DNA of 61,719 bases, the filler included, from Basidiobolus ranarum (taxonomy: Eukaryota), in NCBI GenBank assembly GCA_040143965.1. It is 24 parts of 24 records of this genome, joined end to end, with 100 filler letters (N's around TTAATTAATTAA, not from the genome) between each part and the next. Parts side by side here need not be neighbours in the genome. Positions count along the whole stretch, not along the records: positions 1 to 2,486 come from JASJQH010003283.1; 23 more parts are not named here. One strand, written 5' to 3'. Numbering within the stretch: the stretch's first letter is position 1; every line of letters begins with the position of its first letter. Made by a program: the position numbers and the translations under genes. Shown piece after piece: positions 1 to 56,439 of the stretch. The notes beneath the pieces are model-generated. The model saw only the letters and a program-made list of their open reading frames with translations, was not told the origin of the DNA and ran no database searches.

Positions 1-17
1 TATTCCTAATCTTAACC

Positions 18-145
18 CCAGACTTGATTATATCTTTTTAAAACAAATCTTAATTCCAGACTTGATTATATCTTTTTAAAACAAATCTTAATTCCAGACT
101 TGATTATATCTTTTTAAAACAAATCTTAATTCCAGACTTGATTAT
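18..145 (+). repeat. 38-bp tandem repeat, about 3.4 perfect copies
   Basis: Unit CCAGACTTGATTATATCTTTTTAAAACAAATCTTAATT starts at 18, 56, 94 and 132. Confidence 0.95.
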
Positions 146-798: not shown

Positions 799-2052
799 AT
801 GCTTACTTACTTTGTTAATATGTTTCCCTATTCTTGGGCTACGCTTTGCTTCATGTTATTGCATTTCCAAAGCAAAGTACAGGCTAGACAGCTCAGCGGT
901 GAGTGTGAACTGTTGGATGAGCTGTTTCGGACATCTGGACAAAGCTGGAAAAATCAAGATGGTTGGGTAGACACAAATATTCACTGTTGCACTTGGTTTG
1001 GTATTACCTGCAACTCCAATCATACAGTGACAGAGATGTATAGTACCTTTTCTAACCTTTTGCAGTGGTAAATATACTCACATGTATGTGATTAGTGAGC
1101 TAAGCGATAATGGGCTCGTTGGTCAGTTCTTTCAGAAATTTGGTGAATTTAGATCGCTCAATAAATTGTAAGTCGCGAATCCTATGGACTTGCAGAGAAA
1201 TACCACGCTAAAGCTAACCACTTTCTAAGGGATTTGAGTAAGAATAGCTTGACAGGGAGTTTGCCTCTGGGACTTTCGTATATTGCAGGCCTGGAATATC
1301 TGTAAGTGACCATATTGTATTGAATAGGATTAGGAACCTTCTAACAAGCTTTCAGAAATTTGAGGGGAAATATGTTAACAGGTTCTATCCCCAGGCATAT
1401 CGGTCAGCTGAAGAAGCTGAAGACATTGTATGTATCCTTCGTAAAACATCTCGTGAGAGTTTTTCTGATTCCTTTGAAAATCGTAGAGATTTGAGTGAAA
1501 ATCTACTCAGTGGCTCCATTCCGTATGAGATGGGAGACATGCCGAAACTAACTGAGATGTGAGTAAGTTTTGCTTGAATATCATATTTCATTTTCTTATT
1601 CCAAACGTATTTAGCTCTCTCGATGGGAATCGTTTGATAGGAACCATCCCGGTTCAATTTATGGAGTTGGCAAATTTACAGGAATTGTAAGATTCCATCT
1701 TGATCTTTTTAGATGGTTACATCAACTAATCTGACTTCAGGTATGTGCAAAATAACCATTTAGAAGGCCCAGTTCCACCTCTAACAAGAGAGCTGCGTGC
1801 CTGTGATTTCTCGAACAATACATTTTACTGCTCGTTCCGAGAATACTCGGACAATTGTCCAGGTGTACCATCGCTTCACTGTAAAGGTTCAAGCTCATTC
1901 ACGATTGTTCTCTCTTGTACTCCAGATTAACCTTATTTCTTATGCTAGCCAATATGTATGCTTCGGAATCATACGGACTCGCAGCCTACCGCTTGGTGTA
2001 TATGATGCTACTTACAACAGCCGTTACATGTTTTCATGCCGTAAATAGTTAA
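799..2052 (+). CDS. Secreted plant-type (24-aa) leucine-rich repeat protein, 8 exons, hydrophobic C-terminal tail
   Basis: Exons 799(or 820)-1037, 1096-1167, 1230-1301, 1356-1427, 1487-1558, 1615-1686, 1741-1886, 1949-2052, all GT-AG and in frame. Signal-like N-terminus; LRRNT cap HCCTWFGITC; repeats such as DLSKNSLTGSLP, NLRGNMLTGSIP, DLSENLLSGSIP. Confidence 0.9.
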
Positions 2053-3515: not shown

Positions 3516-5071
3516 TTCCTACTCAACTAATTATTTTGTACATCTCTGAAACCCAACTTGTATATTAATAATTCAAATTGTGCTTTAGCTAAAGGTTTGG
3601 TTAAGATATCAGCTATCATTTCTTCAGTAGGGCAATAGACAAGTTCAATTTTATCATTCTCTATTGCTTCTCTAACAAATTAATGCCTAATATCTATATG
3701 TTTTGTTCTAGCATGAAATGTAGGATTTTTAGCTAATGAAATACAACTTTGATTATCTTCAAATACAGTAATAGCACATTTTTGCATGTATCCTAAGTCT
3801 GTAAGTAGCTTCATTAACCACATAGTTTCTGGTGTAGTAGCAGAGGCAGCCATATACTCTGCTTCTGTAGTGAAAAGTGCTATGGTTGGTTGCTTCTTAC
3901 TATTCCAAGTTATGGCTCCATTACCATAGAGAAAAGTGTATCCAGTTGTTGATCTTTAATCATCAATGTTTCTTCCCCAGTCTGCATCACTGTAGCCTTC
4001 AAAATTTTGTGCATCTGGAGTGGCAGAGTATTCTAGAACTCGATCTATGCTTCCTCTCAAATACCTGAACATTTATTTTACTGCAGTTTTGTGCTCAGAT
4101 CCTAGATTTTTGAGATATTGGCTGACAGTTGCCACTGCCACAGCAATGTCTGGACGTGTTCCAACCATTGTATACATTAAACTACCAACTATGGATTGAG
4201 CAGGGAACACCTGGCATTGATTTGAGTCATTTTGGGCTAAATTGGATGAAATTTTGATTATTTTCACATTGGGATCCATTGGTGTTGATATAGGCTTGCT
4301 ATTCTCCATGTTGAAGCATTTTAGGATGTCTAGGAAGTATTTAGACTGATTCAGCATGATATTCTGATGGGGTTTATCTCTCTGGATTTGGATTCCAAGA
4401 AAATAACTTAAATCACCCATATCAGTCATCTACAATTGGTTTGATAAGCTGATTTTTGTCTGATTAAGTGCTCCTAGATCAATTGTGGCTATGACTAAGT
4501 CATCCACATATAGTGCCCAGATAAGAATCCTAGTTCCGGTAGTTTTGATGTAAATACTTTGATCTGCTGTGCATTTTTGGAATTCCAGAGAATCCAAATA
4601 GGTATCTATCTTGTTGTACCATGCCCGGGTGCTTGCTTGAGTCCATAGAGCTATTTTTGCAGTTTGCAGACCATATCAGGATGTTTTTGGTCAACAAATC
4701 CATCTGGTTGCTCCATATAGATCTCTTCTTCTAGATTTCCATTCAGAAAGGCTGTTTTTATATCCATTTTATGTAGATCTAGGTTATGGACGGCTGAGAG
4801 TGCCAGGATTGATAGAATGGAGCTAAACTTAGCTACAGGAGCAAAAGCTTTATTAAAATCAACTCCTGGAGTCTGGGAATAGCCTTTTACAACTAATCTT
4901 GCTTTGTACCTTTCTATGGTTCCATCAGCCTTGTTTTTGACTTTGTAGACCCATTTGCAACCTATTGGCTTTCTCCCTGATGGATGAGGACTTAAAACCC
5001 ATGTTTTGTTGTGCTGAAGTGAAGAAAACTCTTCTGACATTGCTTTTTCCCATAATTTTGATTCTGGACAC
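3516..5071 (-). mobile_element. Ty1/Copia retrotransposon RT-RNaseH, degenerate, partial
   Basis: GCKWVYKVK, RYKARLVVKG, MDIKTAFLNG, LYVDD, GTRPDI and ADILTK motifs with stops; purine-rich tract followed by TGTTG at 3515. Confidence 0.95.
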
Positions 5072-7752: not shown

Positions 7753-10233
7753 CTGGCTATGTGGGCAACCTTATCGTCACCTCCAATACTCATGTACTCG
7801 TTGTTTTTCACTAAACGAACTACAGAACGGTGTTCCACAAGAACTCCCTTGGGTGTTCCAGTAGATCCAGATGTATACATGATATAGGCAATGTTCGTAG
7901 AGGTTGGGCGCACAGTAGCTGATGCATTGGATTGCTTCATGAGATCGTCAATCATTTCATCTAAGCATACAACTTTTTGCTCACCATTTGTGAAAGCGCC
8001 AACTGTTGACCGTTCACATATAATGACTGAAGCCCCCGTATCTTTGAGCATGAAACTTAATCTGTCCTCAGGATACTGTGAATCTAGCGGCACATATGCA
8101 CCGCCAGCTTTCAGTATAGCAAGGAGAGCTACTATCATCAGAGGAGAGCGTTGCATACACACAGCAACTGGAGATTCAATTCTAACCCCTAGGTACGTGA
8201 GATACTTGGCAAGTTGATTTGATCTCTGGTGGAGTTGTAAGTAGGTTAGTTCCTCAGAATTGCTCACAACTGCAAGAGAATTCGGAGAGTTGTACACTTG
8301 CTCCTCAAAAATATCCACAATTGATTTGTCGCGTGGATAATTGGTCATAGTATTGTTCATTGTAATCAAAAGTTGGCTGCGATCCGAAGCGTCCAGCATG
8401 TTTATACTACCTATTTGTTGATCTGGATTTTCGACAACAGCCTTTAAAATCTTCTTCATGTTTGAGAGCATTCCACTTATCGTCTCCTCACTGAATAGGT
8501 CAGTGCTATAAATAAACTCGGCCTTCAATCCTTCTCCGTTTTTCCAGAAATGCACCTCCATGTCAAATCGTGTAGTAATCTCTGTGGTTTCCATAAGAGT
8601 GGCCTCCACATCTCCAAATTTAAAATCATCAACAGAAGCATCTTGCAATGCAAACATCACCTGAACCAAAGGATTACGACTAAGGTCACGCTCGGGTTGT
8701 AACTCGGCCACGATTTGTTCGAATGGAACATCCTGGTGACTGTATGCGCCTAAAGTAACCTCTTTGACCTGTGCCAACAGCTCTTTGAAAGTTAGCTCAT
8801 GATCCACCTGCACCCGAATTACTTGTGTGTTTACAAAGAACCCAATCATAGCTTCAGTTTCTTTCCGATTGCGATTAGCAATAGGAGAACCAATGGCAAT
8901 GTCTTCCTGACCAGTGTATTTGAAAAGCAATATCTCAAATGCTGTCATCAGTGTCATGTATAAAGTAGAAGTCTCCATCTTGCTCAGTTCTTTTAGCTGA
9001 TTAGCAAATGCTGCTGAGAAGTTTATCTCCTGAACATTTGCTTGGTAGCTGAGGACAGGTGGTCGGATGTAATCACAGGGTAAGGATAATGAACAGATAC
9101 CATCGAGTTGTTTTTTCCAATAATCCATCTGCCTATCGAGGAGCTCTCCCTGCAACCATTGCCGCTGCCATACAGCAAAGTCAGCGTATTGAAGAATAGG
9201 CTCAGGCAATGGCGATGGCTTATCCAGAGAAAAAGATTCATACAGCAAGGCTAGTTCTTTTTGCAAGATAGTGATTGACCATCCATCAGATACGATATGA
9301 TGTGTTACAATTATAAGAATATGCTCTTCGTCATTCACTTGTATGAGCTTAGCCCTCATTAGCGGCCCTTTCGATAAGTCAAATGGTCTGACAGACTCTT
9401 CCATAATCATTGCGTTAATACGGTTCTGATCACTTGTACTTCACAAAATTCAATTAATGAATTAGGTAAGTCTTCTACTGATTTGAATATTTGCACCGGA
9501 TCATTCCCTGAGAGAACAAATGTCGTTCTGAGTCCTTCATGTCTAATAATAACTTCTGCAATCGATCTCCTCAATGAATCGACATTTAACTTCCCTGCAA
9601 GTTTCAAAGTCAGTGGCATATTATAAAACGAACTATCTGGTATCAGCTCGCTCATAAACCACAGCCTCTCTTGAGCAAATGACAGTGGTAACTGGTTACG
9701 CTGAGCAATTCTCGTTAGTTCAGGAATGGAAATGGCAATTCTGTCACTCTCAGCTTTCATCTTTTCCATCTTGGCACTTAGAGACGCTATTGTAGGTGCT
9801 TCAAATAGAGCTATTAGCGGTACCTCCTGTTGCAATATCGTTCGAATCCGAGATATAACTTTGGTTGCTGACAATGAATGCCCACCTCTATCGAAGAAGC
9901 TTTCATGAATACTAATCTGGTCAAACCCGAGGACATCTGAGAATATCGACTCCAGACACTGCTCAATTGATGTTCTAGGTGCTGTATAACTGGTGCTATC
10001 TCCAATTTGTGATGATTGAGGAACAGGTAGGGCTCCACGGTTAATTTTTCCATTTCGCATGAGTGGCATCGAATCCAGGATAATAATTGCACTAGGAACC
10101 ATATACTTGGGCAATAATGTGTGGAGGAGCTCACTCATATGGGATACAAAGGGTTCGTCAACATTGATCCCTGACTCTTCTTCGTTTCGGAGATTCAATC
10201 CTGCATCACTATCGTCATCTGTTACTATATAGC
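7753..10233 (-). CDS. Non-ribosomal peptide synthetase fragment: A(C-terminus)-T-C-A(N-terminus), intronless, with a 1-nt frameshift near 9440
   Basis: YMVP..NGKINR (A10), FFDRGGHSL (T), LSFAQERLWF and HHIVSDGWS (C), AGGAYVPLD and YTSGSTGTPKGV (A3). Confidence 0.96.
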
Positions 10234-44397: not shown

Positions 44398-46298
44398 ATG
44401 AGTCGTTTTTCCGCGTTAAGTGGTGGTTCGAATCAAGAAGAATTCTCTGAAGAGAAGGAAATCGAGGTAAGGAGTTAATAGAAGAATAAAACGTATACAA
44501 GCCTATTATGCTAGCTGTTGTAGATCTTGAAGAAAATAAACTCTGAACTAACTTAAATTTCAAAGTTCCTTCAATTAAAAGATCTGAATCAAGAAGTACT
44601 ACTAAAAATTGCCCCCGAACCTTTTGATCCTCAAGCAACTCCAGGACATGTTTCTTTACTAGCTGTTTCCAATCAATATGGTTATTTCGTAGCTGGTACA
44701 AACAAAGGTACGGGTTGATTATAATACATCAATTCTGGTACAACCTCTAAATCCGAATTTTAGGCTTTGTATTTGACACTACTGATGCCTTAAGACAAGC
44801 CATCAAAAGTGCTACCAAGCAGAGTACAGCTGATTTCAAGGCACAGACGGAAGTTACTGTTTCTAATGGTGTAGTTCAGCATATCCGACTTTCAGCTGAC
44901 GAGCTTACTTTAGTAATTGGTACCAGTACAGGCGATATTTTGCTCTATGATATACCAACTTTGAAGCAACAGGTGAGATTCAATAAGTCAATTGATTTCT
45001 ATGTGTTAGCTACTAAATTTTCGTATGTAGAATGGAGACGTTGATCCTTATAAAACGATTAGCCTCGGAAATTCCATTAAAGACATTCGTTCAAATCCAT
45101 CTGCAAAGCCTACGCAGTTAGCTGTATTGTTAAGCGATAGTAACTTAAAATTCGTTGATTTTTCTGGCGAGGTTCAGCAAGTTGGAAGCACTTACACTGC
45201 AAGTATGTAAATGACAAATGCGCATGTTTGTAGTCATATTCAATAACACCCGTTTTTAGTTTGTTGGTCACGAAAGGGAAAACAAATTGCATGTGGTAAC
45301 ACTCAAAGTGAAGTCTTTCTCATAGCTTGTGACGGTACTACTAAGGGTTCAATTCAACCGCCACCTTCGATTGTAGAAACTCCTCACTACGGTACATAGT
45401 TCCAATATACTGAAAAAGGCTTCACAAAACTAATCTGCTAGCTTCCCTTCTAGTTGAGAGTATATATTGGCTCGAAAATACAGTATTTAATATTGTTTAC
45501 AATATCCAATCAGGGGATCCAGAGGAAGGTCATGAATATTCTGTGTACATTATATCTACTGAAGATAAGTCGAACATCAGTTACAACAAATTAGAAGATC
45601 CCTGTGCACCTTGGGGTATTAAAGACCGAGGCTCTCATTATTATATTGAGCCCATTAAGGATTGGTAATGGCCTATCTCTCTTTTTATTGGTAATTTGAG
45701 CTAACCATTGTGAATTTTTCTTAGGGGTAAAGAATGTAAATATGCTATGTTCTGTGCTAGCACTGCTTCTGCGGATGTTGGTGTAATCGGATGTGACGAA
45801 CTCAAACAATGGAACACCTGGATTTTAGAGGAAACCGCTCGGGCTTCTGTTCCACTTTCACGAATCACTGACGAAGATACTGCGCCAGTTGGATTAGCTA
45901 TAGACTTCACATCATCAGAGTCCCTTCCTCCATTAAATCCAGAAGTTAGTACAACCCTTATCGAGCCTGTTCCCATTCTTATTCTGATGAATAGTGATGG
46001 AATGCTGAGTGCATTTCACTGTTTGAATATTGATGCTGCAAATAATGGCGACAAGTACGAAGGAATGATAAACCCTAGTCCAATTCCGACTTCTAATCCC
46101 CCCAAATCCGCTGTCCCTGCAGCTGCAACCCCTCTCGCAAGCTTTGGTGCCACTGGATTTGGATCTGCCATCAAGCCTGCCTTTGGTGCTACCGGATTTG
46201 ACACACCTTCTACTCCAGTATCTGGAGCAACTACCGGATCCAATAGCAATAACGCAGCTATATCAAATCCTGTTACACCTGGAGGTTCTATATTCGGT
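44398..46298 (+). CDS. NUP159: Nucleoporin Nup159/Nup214: N-terminal beta-propeller and start of FG repeats; 3' partial
   Basis: GYFVAG, CWSRKGKQIACG, DEDTAPVGLAIDFTS, P.PILILMNSDGML; then SFG/AFG repeats; multiple introns. Confidence 0.88.
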
Positions 46299-46398: not shown

Positions 46399-48310
46399 AA
46401 AGGATCCTCCGTTGCTTTTCGATGAGCTTTGGTTTTGCTACGAGATGATGGCTTAGCAGACTCTACATTGGGACCTACTGATGATTTTACAGAGTTGTTA
46501 TCAGTTACAGGCTCAGCGATAAATCTTCAGGTAAATATAATAAGTTTTTGTTGCTTACTCAAAATCGTGCTCGCGTACCCAGTATATGCTGCAGGTTCAC
46601 TCATGCTAAAAAGATCATCTGTTACCTTTTGATGAGCTTTAGTTTTGTTACCGGATGGTGACTTCGTAGACTCCATATTACGAGTTTTTTGTGACTTTCT
46701 CAAGTTGTTATTAGCAGCAGGCTTAGTATATTTTCGTGTCGGTAATACCAGTTTATGACGTTCATTCTGAATTAGTTCCAATATATTGGTAGGTTCACTT
46801 TTCAAATTGAGTGACCTTTCTTCTATTTTCTCAAAGAGTGTTTCTATTGTGCAATTACCAGCCTGAAACAAGGCAGTAACTCGCTCCATCTCTTGAACAA
46901 TCTTTGCTTCACCACATATACTCGCTGTAGAAGCAACGTTTCTTTCCAAGTCAAATGGATCTTCGACATGAAGCAAGTATCCACGACTCATCCAGATCTC
47001 TTTCATAGCTATCAGTCTGCCAGTACGAATTGAAATGACGTCTGATGACTCGATAATACGCAAGTAAAACTCACAAAATTGGATAAACAATTCGAGTACA
47101 CTTGGTAGAGTTGAATCATATGGTTTTCTAAAATAAAATGAAAGCAAGTGAAGTTCTTTGAAATATGAGACATCTGCATAACTCATGTTAGATGAAACTT
47201 GCTTCTTTCTACGTTTCTTGAATCGCTGATTCACCAAAATGGGGATAAGTATACCCTCTTCATCTAATTCCTGGCTGATTTGTTGAAGTGAAGGTAATAT
47301 TGGCTCATCAAGATTTTGTAGAAAGAATATTGCCATAAGTACATAGCAATACGAACTATATGTTCCTATTCAGCAATAGTTGAGATACTATACTTTTTTC
47401 AAGTTGTAAAAAAATCTGTATGTTTACCTCCACTTGCTGAATTGATACCTCGACGCTTTGCCCAATACTAGGACATTACGTTAGTATAGATGGACAATTT
47501 TAAAGTATGAATAAACGGCTTACTTTGATTAACATGATAAGTTTTTTGACTCTATCATCGATTGAAAGATACGCCGTGATCATTTGAGAATTGTGAAGAC
47601 CAAGTATATTATTCACATTAATATCGCATGAAATACAACTATTAATGAGAAGTTAATAGAGGTTTAGACACAATCCATTTGTGAGACAACATACTATTCC
47701 GGATCGTAAAACTTAACAATGGGTACCCGGGCACCAGCAATCGGGGTAACATATCGCATGCCAGCTTAAATTGTTGAAAGAGGTAAAGATATAATACTCT
47801 GAGGTGGTGAAGTATTATGATACTAACCAAAGCGAAGAATCCTAGCTAACGCGTTCACGTTTACCTCATTATCGTTCCACTCGGTTTCGAGAGCAACATC
47901 GCAATCGCTTCCGCCGAAGTCTAAACCGGTGATTGAGGAGCTGCAAATAAGTAGTATTTAGCAGAAGAGAGCAAAATAAAAACTGTATAACAATAAATAT
48001 ACCCAAACAAATGTGCTGTGATTTGTTTATCTGGAAAATGGGTGTTTATGAGATGCTGGATCTTATTTAGAAATTGTAGTCTACGTTCACGAGCTTTTTC
48101 CGAAGAGATAATACTCTATATTTTTGGAATGAAGTATTTATCGCGCGTTATATAAATAATTCAGTAACACGGATATATGGAATGATTCCTTACCTTGAGT
48201 AATATATTAGTGTGCAAGTTGAGCTGTTCGACATTACGAGCCCGAATGCTATGGATACTTTGTGGTTGAGCTTCAACAGTGAACTCTGCTGAGCGGTTCA
48301 TAAATGACAT
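46399..48310 (-). CDS. Cid1/TUTase-family non-canonical poly(A)/poly(U) polymerase; 3' partial
   Basis: LFG|SSITGLDFGGSDCDV, ARVPIVKF, CDINVNN, YWAKRRGIN, SSYCYVLM, VEDPFDLERNVA. Confidence 0.9.
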
Positions 48311-54993: not shown

Positions 54994-55935
54994 CGCGGAT
55001 GAATTTCCCTATTTTCAATTATGTTAACAAAAATCGAACTACACCTCAACAAAAAAGAAACATTTAATCTCTCTCGCTTTTTTGACCGCTTTTACAACTT
55101 TGCCTCAGGAGCTTGGAATGCAGATTTACAAGATAAACTCACGTGACCCTGTGGATCAATTTCTGTTACCGTAATTTTATCTCCAACTGATGCAACATCT
55201 ACTTATTTATTCATCCCATCCAGAATATAGGCTTGAAAGACGTTTTGCTAGTATTAAATTAATCTGTAGCTTTTATATCTGTTCTTGTCTGATCTTAAAA
55301 TACCATCATAATATCTTCTAATACATGCGACTGTTGCCTCAATGGAAACAAGTGTTAAACCCTTTCCCATTTTTGACGATACTGTACACGTAGTTTTTGT
55401 ATGGGTATCGATGCAAGAATTTAGCACTTTCCTGACGTGATTCGCTCATAATCAGGTTGACTGTAACGCTCTAGATCTCCAAAGTTGGAAGAACTTGCAT
55501 CAATTTCACAGCTGTCACAGTTTGCAGATTCAAGGGAAGCTATGTGGAAGTCCGAAAATGTGAAGCCTTGGTTATTTAATAAAATATCCGAAAGGTACAT
55601 TTGCGTTCCTTTTATTATTTTTGGATCCCGATCATATTCGTTAAGCCAATACCATAGTTGGCGGAGATTAAAGTAATGAATGAGTTTCCAATAAGATGTC
55701 AGTGATGGAAGCATAATTAGAAGTAGTGGAGATAATGATGGTGCTGGTGCTGGTGTTTATGGTACAGGATGGAGTATTCAATGCCTAAACTACTCATAGT
55801 AGCTGTATCAAAAGTACACTTACTCTACGTCAAAAACATATTCATAGAGTTGCCCCCAAACAAAATATTAAACATGGATATTTATTAAATCTGTAATTTA
55901 CATTCATCTGGGTATTCTAGAAGCTCAATCTATTT

Positions 55936-56439
55936 CTAGTATTTGTCGTAACCTTTGTTTCCACCGTGGCCGTTGCTATGTCTTTTACCATTGCCCTCAT
56001 AATCATCTCCGTCGTAATCATCGCCACCTCCACCATATTTCTTTCCCCTTCCTCCACCACGATGATAGTCATCATCACCGTCATACTCCTCATCATAATC
56101 CCCATCTCCTCTTCCACTACCGTATTTCTTTCCCCTTCCACTCTTGTAGTTCCCTCCATCGTCGTGTCCATCATATTCATCATCATCATAGTTATCGCCA
56201 TGGCCTCCACTACCACCTCCGTATCTCTTACCTCGTCTGTGGCCGTATTCTTCTCCATTGCCATCACTATCATATTTGTCATCGTAGTCATCACCACCAC
56301 CATGACCACCGCCATATTTATGTGATCTCCCGCCACCACCGCCACCACCTCCACTATATCCTACTCCCTTATAGCTTGGATCGTACGAACGCTCAAGCAC
56401 ACTGGCATGAATAGCAAAGACTGTAGAAAGAACAAGCAC
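55936..56439 (-). CDS. Secreted Gly/Asp/Tyr-rich repetitive protein (5' exon not located)
   Basis: Hydrophobic signal-like segment after a putative acceptor CTAAG; four KYG-Gly-Asp/Tyr blocks. Confidence 0.7.
   Translation of the reverse strand: MLVLSTVFAIHASVLERSYDPSYKGVGYSGGGGGGGGRSHKYGGGHGGGDDYDDKYDSDGNGEEYGHRRGKRYGGGSGGHGDNYDDDEYDGHDDGGNYKSGRGKKYGSGRGDGDYDEEYDGDDDYHRGGGRGKKYGGGGDDYDGDDYEGNGKRHSNGHGGNKGYDKY

What the first reader, a model, noticed from the sequence alone, without database searches (positions are those of the whole stretch)
799..2052. Plant-receptor-style LRR gene in a fungus, with one repeat per exact 72-nt exon
Seen: five consecutive internal exons are each exactly 72 nt with phase-2 introns. 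Each encodes one 24-aa LxLxxNxLxGxIP repeat, after a signal peptide and a CxWxGIxC cap. The last exon encodes a short hydrophobic tail and there is no kinase. Known: this repeat class and exon-per-repeat layout characterise plant SERK/ERECTA-type receptor genes and are uncommon in Dikarya. Inference: a surface (possibly GPI-anchored) receptor-like protein whose symmetric exons allow in-frame skipping or shuffling, i.e. a candidate diversifiable recognition family. The ORF track fragments it.
Basis: partly seen in the sequence, partly recalled or inferred. Interest (0 to 1): 0.72.

Follow-up and report, generated by a model that had tools for sequence, protein, structure and literature searches.

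The report
Plant-style LRR surface gene in Basidiobolus
A small gene of the fungus Basidiobolus ranarum encodes a secreted, probably membrane-tethered protein of six plant-style leucine-rich repeats, five of them each on its own 72-base exon as in plant receptor genes; it is real and rare for a fungus, but nothing shows that its exons are being shuffled.

Summary
Window 799-2052 (+) is an eight-exon gene with exons of 239, 72, 72, 72, 72, 72, 146 and 104 nt and introns of 54-62 nt; the first six introns are phase 2. It encodes about 282 aa: signal peptide, Cys-capped N-cap, six 24-residue plant-specific-type LRRs, a four-Cys C-cap and a short hydrophobic tail. There is no kinase.

The introns split the first Leu/Ile codon of xxLxLxx. 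This is the position and phase reported for ERECTA, SERK, SYMRK and rice LRR kinases, and it differs from the brown-algal LRR exon.

The gene sits alone on a 2,486-bp contig of Basidiobolus ranarum, which is not a Dikaryon. The public model (K7432_017042, 198 aa) is defective: it lacks exon 1, misreads exon 4 and retains the last intron.

The closest module-level relatives are bacterial (Chloroflexota-type) multi-module LRR proteins and unnamed metagenome proteins, not land-plant receptors.

The "diversifiable family" reading is unsupported. The repeats are old, with third-position identity of 17-42% and unalignable introns. No paralogue or close homologue was found. The GPI anchor is plausible but untested.

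This scan had already noted two eight-exon LRR paralogues elsewhere in this genome. My verdict is a new member of a known kind, of moderate interest.

The parts
799..885 (+). Start codon and predicted signal peptide (about 29 aa, ending ..VQA)
   Evidence: First in-frame ATG after a stop. Hydrophobic core and a small-residue -3/-1 site were judged by eye; no predictor was run.
886..1037 (+). N-terminal cap of the LRR domain (four Cys, ends CTWFGITC..VTE); exon 1 ends in phase 2
   Evidence: Pfam LRRNT_2 gives 16 bits, below the 20.7 cut-off. It aligns to the N-caps of PSKR1 and BAK1 (E 6.5e-4 to 4e-3) and to library modules at 33-40 bits.
1038..1095 (+). Intron 1, 58 nt, GTATAG..TAG, phase 2
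   Evidence: The public model starts at an ATG inside this intron.
1096..1167 (+). Exon 2, 72 nt, LRR1 (LVGQFF variant)
1230..1301 (+). Exon 3, 72 nt, LRR2
1356..1427 (+). Exon 4, 72 nt, LRR3; misread in the public model
   Evidence: Pfam LRR_1 hint on this exon. The corresponding stretch of the public model folds at pLDDT below 50.
1487..1558 (+). Exon 5, 72 nt, LRR4
1615..1686 (+). Exon 6, 72 nt, LRR5
1741..1886 (+). Exon 7, 146 nt: LRR6 plus four-Cys C-terminal cap
   Evidence: It is 100% identical to the C-terminal part of the public protein P0162.
1887..1948 (+). Predicted intron 7, 62 nt, weak donor GTTCAA; alternative in-frame donors at 1863 and 1881; retained in the public model
   Evidence: There is no RNA evidence.
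1949..2052 (+). Exon 8: small-residue stretch (..ASES..), 17-residue hydrophobic tail, two residues, stop TAA at 2050-2052
   Evidence: This is the most hydrophobic 15-mer of the protein (Kyte-Doolittle 1.6, residues 264-278). The GPI signal is inferred only.
8..145 (.). 38-nt tandem repeat, 3.6 copies, at the contig's 5' end; not shown to belong to the gene

Best explanation
This is an intact, mis-annotated eight-exon gene of Basidiobolus ranarum. Its product enters the secretory pathway and folds into a short, disulfide-capped solenoid of six plant-specific-type LRRs. It is most likely held on the cell surface by its C-terminal hydrophobic tail, probably after exchange for a GPI anchor. It has no signalling domain of its own. 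I therefore read it as a ligand-binding surface module that acts as a binder or adhesin, or as a co-receptor for membrane-spanning partners. This would resemble GPI-linked or kinase-less LRR proteins elsewhere.

Shown: the gene structure, the repeat class, the caps, and the absence of a kinase.
Inferred: signal-peptide cleavage, the last splice, the GPI anchor, and any partner or ligand.

The 72-nt phase-2 exon layout is an old inherited feature of this repeat type, not a sign of ongoing shuffling.
For: - Gene model and phases.
- Repeat register and consensus: LxGxIP or LxGxLP/VP is present in 5 of 6 repeats.
- Contiguous alignments across all junctions of exons 1-7.
- Pfam LRR_1, LRR_8 and LRR_4 score above their cut-offs on the public protein.
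- 149 solved-structure sequences match at E<=1e-3. The top 40 rows are plant LRR ectodomains; further down come Leptospira LIC LRR proteins and one antifreeze polypeptide.
- The N-cap aligns to PSKR1, BAK1 and SERK caps.
- Cys counts are 4 in the N-cap and 4 in the C-cap with the 1887 donor. The tail is the most hydrophobic segment, is preceded by small residues, and ends 2 residues before the stop.
- Host identity: the public record is K7432_017042 of Basidiobolus ranarum, on a contig of 2,486 bp.
- The contig's GC (39.1%) and trinucleotide profile (r 0.969) lie inside the range of the other 23 contigs (GC 33.9-42.0%, r 0.866-0.982).
- Repeats are old.
- Intron position and phase equal those printed for ERECTA, SERK, SYMRK and rice LRR kinases.
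Against: - There is no RNA evidence for any junction.
- The last donor is poor, and the public model retains that intron, which would give a soluble protein.
- The tail is only moderately hydrophobic and contains Thr, His and Cys. No GPI or signal-peptide predictor could be run.
- The spliced protein could not be folded or searched as a whole, so fold evidence comes from the defective public model (pTM 0.61, mean pLDDT 62, C-cap below 50).
- No orthologue was found to show that the tail is conserved.
- Partner proteins are known only from earlier unchecked notes.
Confidence: 0.55

Rival explanations
1. A soluble secreted LRR protein. The last intron is not removed, as in the public model, and the protein ends ..SCTPD at 1930 without an anchor. 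It would act in the medium or wall as a binder or inhibitor of foreign proteins, in the way PGIPs do.
For: The public model reads through 1887-1930. The donor at 1887 is GTTCAA, far from the GTAAGT/GTATGT/GTGAGT used by four of the other introns. Soanes and Talbot list 15 signal-peptide LRR proteins without a TM in 10 of 49 fungi (PMC2939053, section 5).
Against: The same public model is wrong at exons 1 and 4, so it carries little weight. Three candidate donors are all in frame with one acceptor, and they open a 34-codon frame ending in the protein's most hydrophobic stretch. Read-through gives an odd Cys count.
Confidence: 0.22
2. One reading: a member of a diversifying recognition family that varies by skipping, duplicating or shuffling its symmetric 72-nt exons.
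For: All five exons are symmetric (phase 2-2) and of equal length, so any could be skipped or duplicated in frame. Such shuffling is documented for 72-nt LRR exons in Ectocarpus (PMC3341825, passages).
Against: DNA identity between the exons is 40-54%, and third-position identity is 17-42%. The introns are not alignable (max z 2.5 in 21 pairs). The 54-62-nt introns leave no room for cryptic LRR remnants. There is no second copy in the window and no close homologue in the protein libraries. Both earlier-noted paralogues are described as eight-exon genes, one with five repeats (unchecked).
Confidence: 0.07
3. A truncated or decaying offshoot of the membrane-spanning LRR paralogues. The hydrophobic tail would be a remnant of their TM helix, cut short by a stop, with little or no function.
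For: Earlier notes describe two eight-exon paralogues in this genome with a TM helix and cytoplasmic tails. Here the frame stops two codons after the hydrophobic stretch, and nothing is open downstream.
Against: All eight exons are open. All six repeats keep the consensus, and both caps keep even Cys counts. A hydrophobic end with almost no cytoplasmic residues is what a GPI signal looks like.
Confidence: 0.1
4. Foreign DNA: either a contaminant contig from a plant, alga or protist, or a recent transfer from one. A transfer from bacteria followed by intron gain is a variant of this.
For: The contig is only 2,486 bp and carries just this gene. The best named relatives of the module are bacterial: 4 of 4 organism names among 20 proteins looked up. 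Basidiobolus is reported to hold many bacterial genes (PMC7466969, search listing only). The intron layout is plant-like.
Against: Composition is typical of the other 23 contigs. Introns of 54-62 nt are, from general knowledge, shorter than land-plant introns. Four of the 7 have a CTRAY branch motif close to the 3' end, which is fungal in style (read by eye). Seven introns, six at the same repeat position, do not fit a recent bacterial origin. Earlier notes report paralogues with the same exon count in this genome and in a second Basidiobolus species (unchecked).
Confidence: 0.06

Closest known systems
Plant LRR receptor genes with intron-split LRR domains (ERECTA, SERK/BAK1, SYMRK; rice group 5 LRR kinases)
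   Same: 24-residue plant-specific-type repeats. An N-cap ending C-x-W-x-G-[IV]-x-C. One repeat per 72-nt exon, with phase-2 introns splitting the first Leu codon of xxLxLxx (PMC3050792 passages; here). SERK-like size of about five to six repeats. Solved BAK1, SERK and PSKR1 caps align to exon 1.
   Different: No kinase and no clear TM helix. The N-cap scores higher against bacterial and metagenome modules (33-40 bits) than against solved plant caps (17-23 bits). The C-cap has four Cys. The host is a fungus, and the introns are 54-62 nt.
Bacterial multi-module 'LRRNT + 5-6 LRR' surface proteins (Anaerolineales/Chloroflexota, Ca. Vecturithrix) and unnamed metagenome relatives
   Same: These give the best module-level matches. 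Residues 34-228 align almost without gaps at 122-131 bits. The cap motif is the same (E-C-E..L..L/F...G..W....GW.D.N..C.W..I/V.C) and so is the repeat count per module.
   Different: They are giant proteins of 2-18 modules with other domains, and they have no introns. Here there is a single module with seven introns, a eukaryotic signal peptide and a hydrophobic tail.
Leishmania promastigote surface antigen (PSA-2/GP46) family
   Same: Same architecture: signal peptide, Cys N-cap, 24-25-residue LRRs, and a Cys-rich C-cap. Some members end there (secreted) and others carry a C-terminal hydrophobic domain predicted to be a GPI signal (PMC2584048 passages).
   Different: The repeat consensus differs (G[TS]LPxxW..). 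There are no introns. The repeat number varies widely through recombination and the family is multicopy. No sequence relationship was tested.
Ectocarpus 'type I LRR exons' (LRR-ROCO genes)
   Same: One 24-residue repeat per 72-nt symmetric exon (PMC3341825 passages).
   Different: There the exon runs GxxP...LxLxxNxLx, so the intron sits at another point of the repeat. Shuffling with near-identical exons and intronic remnants is documented there and absent here.
Two LRR membrane proteins of the same genome noted earlier by this scan (e1-7299735, e1-7322153)
   Same: Described as eight-exon Basidiobolus genes with a small plant-style LRR ectodomain.
   Different: They are said to have a TM helix plus a long disordered tail or an SH3 domain. 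This gene ends two residues after its hydrophobic stretch. I could not obtain their sequences, and a word look-up with the public protein found no look-alike.

Membership tests
Plant-specific (PS) class of LRRs | 24-residue period | tested here: met
   Six consecutive 24-residue rows. Five correspond exactly to the 72-nt exons.
Plant-specific (PS) class of LRRs | Consensus LxxLxLxxNxLxGxIPxxLxxLxx (consensus recalled; the core is also given in PMC3341825 and PMC2946307 listings) | tested here: met
   LxLxxN is present in 6 of 6 repeats and LxGx[ILV]P in 5 of 6. Of 149 solved-structure matches, the top 40 rows are plant LRR ectodomains.
Extracellular capped LRR domain (Pfam LRRNT_2 cap) | N-terminal Cys cap ending CxWxGVxC | tested here: inconclusive
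   The motif is present (CTWFGITC). Pfam LRRNT_2 gives only 16 bits against a 20.7 cut-off. PSKR1 and BAK1 caps align at E 6.5e-4 to 4e-3.
Plant LRR receptor kinases (SERK, ERECTA type) | Cytoplasmic protein kinase domain | tested here: not met
   The frame stops at 2050-2052. The remaining 434 nt of the contig hold no Pfam match.
Plant LRR receptor kinases (SERK, ERECTA type) | Single TM helix after the ectodomain | tested here: inconclusive
   There is a 17-residue, moderately hydrophobic stretch only 2 residues from the C-terminus. No TM predictor was run.
Plant LRR receptor kinases (SERK, ERECTA type) | [quoted passage not shown] | tested here: met
   Six of six LRR-domain introns meet this, compared with PMC3050792 passages.
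GPI-anchored proteins | N-terminal signal peptide plus a C-terminal signal: small omega, omega+2 residues, a short spacer, and a hydrophobic end | tested here: inconclusive
   By eye, S-E-S is followed by a 7-residue spacer and a 17-residue hydrophobic stretch. This depends on an unverified last intron, and no predictor was available.
GPI-anchored proteins | Release by PI-PLC / detergent partitioning | not testable with these tools
   This is a bench assay.
Exon-shuffling LRR loci (Ectocarpus type I) | Near-identical 72-nt exons, variable exon number, intronic LRR remnants | tested here: not met
   Exon DNA identity is 40-54% and third-position identity 17-42%. The introns are 54-62 nt and not alike. 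Exon-number variation among paralogues could not be tested.
PGIP-type secreted LRR inhibitors | About 10 PS-type repeats, secreted without an anchor | tested here: not met
   There are six repeats and a hydrophobic tail in the preferred model. PGIP matches only at 63 bits over one stretch.

The most novel reading that the evidence does not exclude
Basidiobolus keeps a small surface-receptor system built on plant-style LRR ectodomains. It would comprise a GPI-tethered, signalling-less member (this gene) working with membrane-spanning paralogues that carry SH3 or disordered tails, much as CD14 or the Nogo receptor work with transmembrane partners. Its exon-per-repeat unit would be truly homologous to that of ERECTA/SERK genes. 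That would mean either that the intron-bearing LRR unit predates the split of fungi and plants, or that it was moved between them.
Probability: 0.12. Interest if true: 0.7.

Novelty: new member of a known kind. Interest (0 to 1): 0.4.

Why it matters
Fungi are said to lack, almost entirely, the extracellular LRR receptors that plants and animals use for recognition (PMC2939053). Early-diverging fungi are the reported exceptions, and they have barely been examined.

This gene adds a clean, small example from a gut-dwelling zygomycete. The public annotation hides it because that model has no signal peptide, no cap and one garbled repeat, so secretome or receptor surveys based on that proteome would miss it.

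The exact match of intron position and phase with plant ERECTA/SERK genes gives a concrete character for asking whether such LRR units are anciently shared or were transferred.

Tried and rejected
- Whole-genome search: none is held for this window.
- Word-index search with exon 1, longer proteins: 3 candidates, none scored.
I then searched exon 7 alone, which found only the gene's own public model.
- Search with that model in the 108-347 aa range: 15 hits among 96 candidates, none above 39% identity apart from itself.
- The exhaustive HMMER search with exon 1 returned 742 hits. The 150 listed are multi-module proteins that crowd out any single-module fungal relatives.
- Two metagenome scans found no relative.
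- tblastn of the spliced product against the window found only itself at E<0.005.
- A look-up of earlier notes by sequence and by look-alike DNA found nothing.
- The spliced 282-aa protein could not be handed to the fold, family or library tools because it is not a letter-for-letter translation of the window. Fold evidence therefore comes from the defective public model. In that model AlphaFold2 gives pLDDT below 50 at residues 58-92, largely the 35-residue misread stretch (about residues 54-88), and at 168-198.
- I considered and rejected an extra intron at the GTGAGT at 899, because that stretch aligns to homologues' caps.
- I built no phylogeny. Only 4 of 20 relatives looked up carry an organism name, and LRR arrays align in any register.

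Full report
**What the window is.** The 61,719-base window is not one locus. It consists of 24 contigs of 2,469-2,486 bp joined by 100-base N/TTAATTAATTAA linkers. The finding lies on the first contig (1-2486), so only those bases are true surroundings.

**The observation.** Reading the sequence and listing donors and acceptors gives one consistent model on the + strand.
- Exons: 799-1037, 1096-1167, 1230-1301, 1356-1427, 1487-1558, 1615-1686, 1741-1886, 1949-2052.
- Exon lengths: 239, 72, 72, 72, 72, 72, 146 and 104 nt.
- Intron lengths: 58, 62, 54, 59, 56, 54 and 62 nt.
- The first six introns are phase 2 and the last is phase 1. The CDS is 849 nt (282 aa).

Cut into 24-residue rows from the exon 1/2 junction, the product gives six repeats. 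Each of the first five corresponds to one 72-nt exon. LxLxxN is present in 6 of 6 repeats and LxGx[ILV]P in 5 of 6.

Exon 1 encodes a hydrophobic N-terminus ending ..VQA and a four-Cys cap ending CTWFGITC. Exon 7 encodes the sixth repeat and a four-Cys C-cap. Exon 8 encodes a stretch of small residues, a 17-residue hydrophobic segment, two more residues and a stop. That segment is the most hydrophobic 15-mer of the protein (Kyte-Doolittle 1.6). No kinase follows: the 434 nt after the stop hold no Pfam match.

**Support for the junctions.** The spliced product, used only on the script machine, aligns almost without gaps in two cases.
- Residues 34-228 align to one module of an Anaerolineales protein (131 bits).
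- Residues 41-215 align to an unnamed 259-aa protein (125 bits).

These alignments cover all junctions from exon 1 to exon 7. A canonical-looking GTGAGT at 899 lies inside a stretch that aligns to homologues' caps, so it is coding.

The last intron is the weak point. Its donor is GTTCAA. Two other donors (1863 GTGTAC, 1881 GTAAAG) are also in frame with the same acceptor. Only the 1887 donor leaves an even Cys count of 4 + 4.

**Host and public annotation.** A search with exon 7 found one protein among 6 candidates. It is 100% identical, 198 aa, named hypothetical protein K7432_017042 of Basidiobolus ranarum, and comes from a contig of 2,486 bp. The host is therefore an early-diverging fungus and not a Dikaryon. 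This agrees with earlier notes on this genome.

The public model has three faults.
- It starts at an ATG inside intron 1, so it lacks the signal peptide and the cap.
- It uses an acceptor inside exon 4 and retains intron 4. This replaces LRR3 with 35 residues from another frame.
- It reads through the last intron.

That 35-residue stretch finds no identities when aligned to GSO1. AlphaFold2 on the public model with a 14-row alignment gives pLDDT of 27-33 over residues 61-90, against 72-88 for the flanking repeats. The overall model has pTM 0.61 and mean pLDDT 62, and the C-cap is also below 50.

**Is the contig foreign?** Its GC (39.1%) and its trinucleotide profile (r = 0.969 to the pooled rest) lie within the ranges of the other 23 contigs (33.9-42.0%; 0.866-0.982). 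Introns of 54-62 nt are fungal in style and, from general knowledge, shorter than land-plant introns. Four of the 7 carry a CTRAY motif 10-25 nt from the 3' end (read by eye). Coverage could not be checked.

**What it resembles.**
- Pfam LRR_1, LRR_8 and LRR_4 pass their cut-offs on the public protein. On single exons only weak hints appear, and LRRNT_2 reaches 16 bits against a cut-off of 20.7.
- Against solved structures, 149 distinct sequences match at E<=1e-3. GSO1, FLS2, MIK2, ERL1 and other plant ectodomains lead. Small ones (PRK3, BIR2, BIR3) score 57-64 bits.
- Exon 1 alone aligns to the caps of PSKR1 (E 6.5e-4), BAK1 (about 4e-3) and SERK1/2 (0.025-0.09) at 17-23 bits.
- The exhaustive HMMER search with exon 1 found 742 proteins at E<=1e-3. 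The 150 listed are 338-4,892 aa long with 2-18 matching stretches, so they are multi-module proteins.
- Their single caps score 33-40 bits and whole modules score 122-131 bits.
- Of 20 such proteins looked up, four clusters carry an organism name, and all four are bacterial: Ca. Vecturithrix granuli, two Chloroflexi/Chloroflexota, and Anaerolineales.
- The two plant proteins and one chytrid protein in hand score 50-62 bits. They were found by word sharing and are not the best possible plant comparators.
- The ESM Atlas look-up lists diatom, streptophyte and bacterial LRR clusters and no fungal one.

The module is therefore of the plant-specific repeat class, but its nearest sequences are not land-plant receptors.

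**Intron layout.** The split codons encode the first residue of each row (I, L, L, L, I, L). This is the first Leu of xxLxLxx.

Passages of PMC3050792 state that introns in rice LRR-kinase LRR domains split that same residue in phase 2 and mostly delimit 72-nt single-repeat exons. [quoted passage not shown]

In Ectocarpus the 72-nt type I exon runs GxxP...LxLxxNxLx, so the intron sits elsewhere in the repeat (PMC3341825 passages).

Six introns at one repeat position argue against a recent bacterial origin followed by intron gain. They fit an old intron-bearing repeat unit, whether inherited or transferred from another eukaryote. I could not decide between these two.

**Is it diversifying?** No evidence supports that.
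- The 72-nt exons are 40-54% identical in DNA and 25-46% in protein.
- Third-position identity is 17-42%, about random.
- Intron pairs score no better than shuffles (max z 2.5 of 21 pairs).
- The window holds no second copy.
- Three word-index searches and two metagenome scans found no close homologue.
- Earlier notes of this scan describe two paralogues elsewhere in this genome, both eight-exon genes, one with five repeats. That is a lead, not a test, but it points to a fixed layout.

**Literature.**
- Soanes and Talbot (PMC2939053, abstract and section 5 read) found LRR receptors in only a few of 49 fungi, among them a chytrid and two zygomycetes. They found 15 signal-peptide LRR proteins in 10 species.
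- A 2026 chytrid MAG paper (PMC13618815, passages) notes LRR kinases in chytrids and zygomycetes, and an 'LRR effector' group shared among early-diverging fungi.
- A search for Basidiobolus with 'leucine-rich repeat' gave one paper with single incidental mentions (listing only). A search for 'early-diverging fungi' with 'receptor-like' gave only the MAG paper.
- The early-diverging-fungi HGT survey (PMC11291939) has no occurrence of LRR terms.
- Leishmania PSA proteins share the architecture, with secreted and predicted GPI-anchored members (PMC2584048 passages).

**Mechanism.** What is shown is an intact gene for a capped six-repeat LRR ectodomain with an N-terminal hydrophobic leader and no signalling domain. 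The rest is inferred: cleavage after ..VQA, two N-glycosylation sequons (NHT, NNT), and removal of the last intron. Also inferred is replacement of the tail by a GPI anchor at about the S-E-S site, leaving a roughly 225-residue binding module on the cell surface or wall. I put about 0.55 on the surface-tethered reading and about 0.22 on a soluble product. Ligand and partners are unknown. A co-receptor role with the TM paralogues is a hypothesis only.

**Verdict.** This is a new member of a known kind, rare in fungi, already met twice by this scan in the same genome, and hidden by a faulty public model.

Noticed in passing
window 1-61719: The window is 24 unrelated contigs of 2,469-2,486 bp, sorted by falling length and joined by 100-base N/TTAATTAATTAA linkers. 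Gene neighbourhoods across linkers are therefore meaningless.
   Followed up: yes
window 1084-1930: The public protein model K7432_017042 (198 aa) for this gene is defective. It starts inside intron 1, puts a wrong-frame 35-residue stretch in place of LRR3, and retains the last intron.
   Followed up: yes
window 8-145: A 38-nt tandem repeat, 3.6 copies at 98% match, sits at the very 5' end of the gene's contig.
   Followed up: no
window 7753-10233 (-): An apparently intron-free non-ribosomal peptide synthetase fragment (PP-binding, Condensation, AMP-binding). It lies in two overlapping ORFs with a frame break near 9407-9440. This fits the bacterial-like NRPS genes reported for Basidiobolus (PMC7466969, listing only).
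   Followed up: partly
window 4651-5070 (-): A copia-type reverse transcriptase (RVT_2, E 1e-39) fragment at a contig end.
   Followed up: no
window 45714-46298 (+) and 46527-47369 (-): The end of a NUP159/214-type beta-propeller followed by a Gly/Ala/Thr-rich tail; on the next contig, a Cid1-type poly(A) polymerase-associated domain.
   Followed up: no
window 55872-56439, both strands: Long low-complexity ORFs on both strands: His-rich on +, Gly/Asp/Tyr-rich on -. Which strand, if either, is coding was not examined.
   Followed up: no
proteins P0001-P0150: A large population of giant proteins carries 2-18 tandem 'cap + 5-6 plant-type LRR' modules. The named ones are Chloroflexota-type bacteria, annotated as sortase, clostripain-related peptidase, fibronectin type III protein or receptor kinase.
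   Followed up: partly
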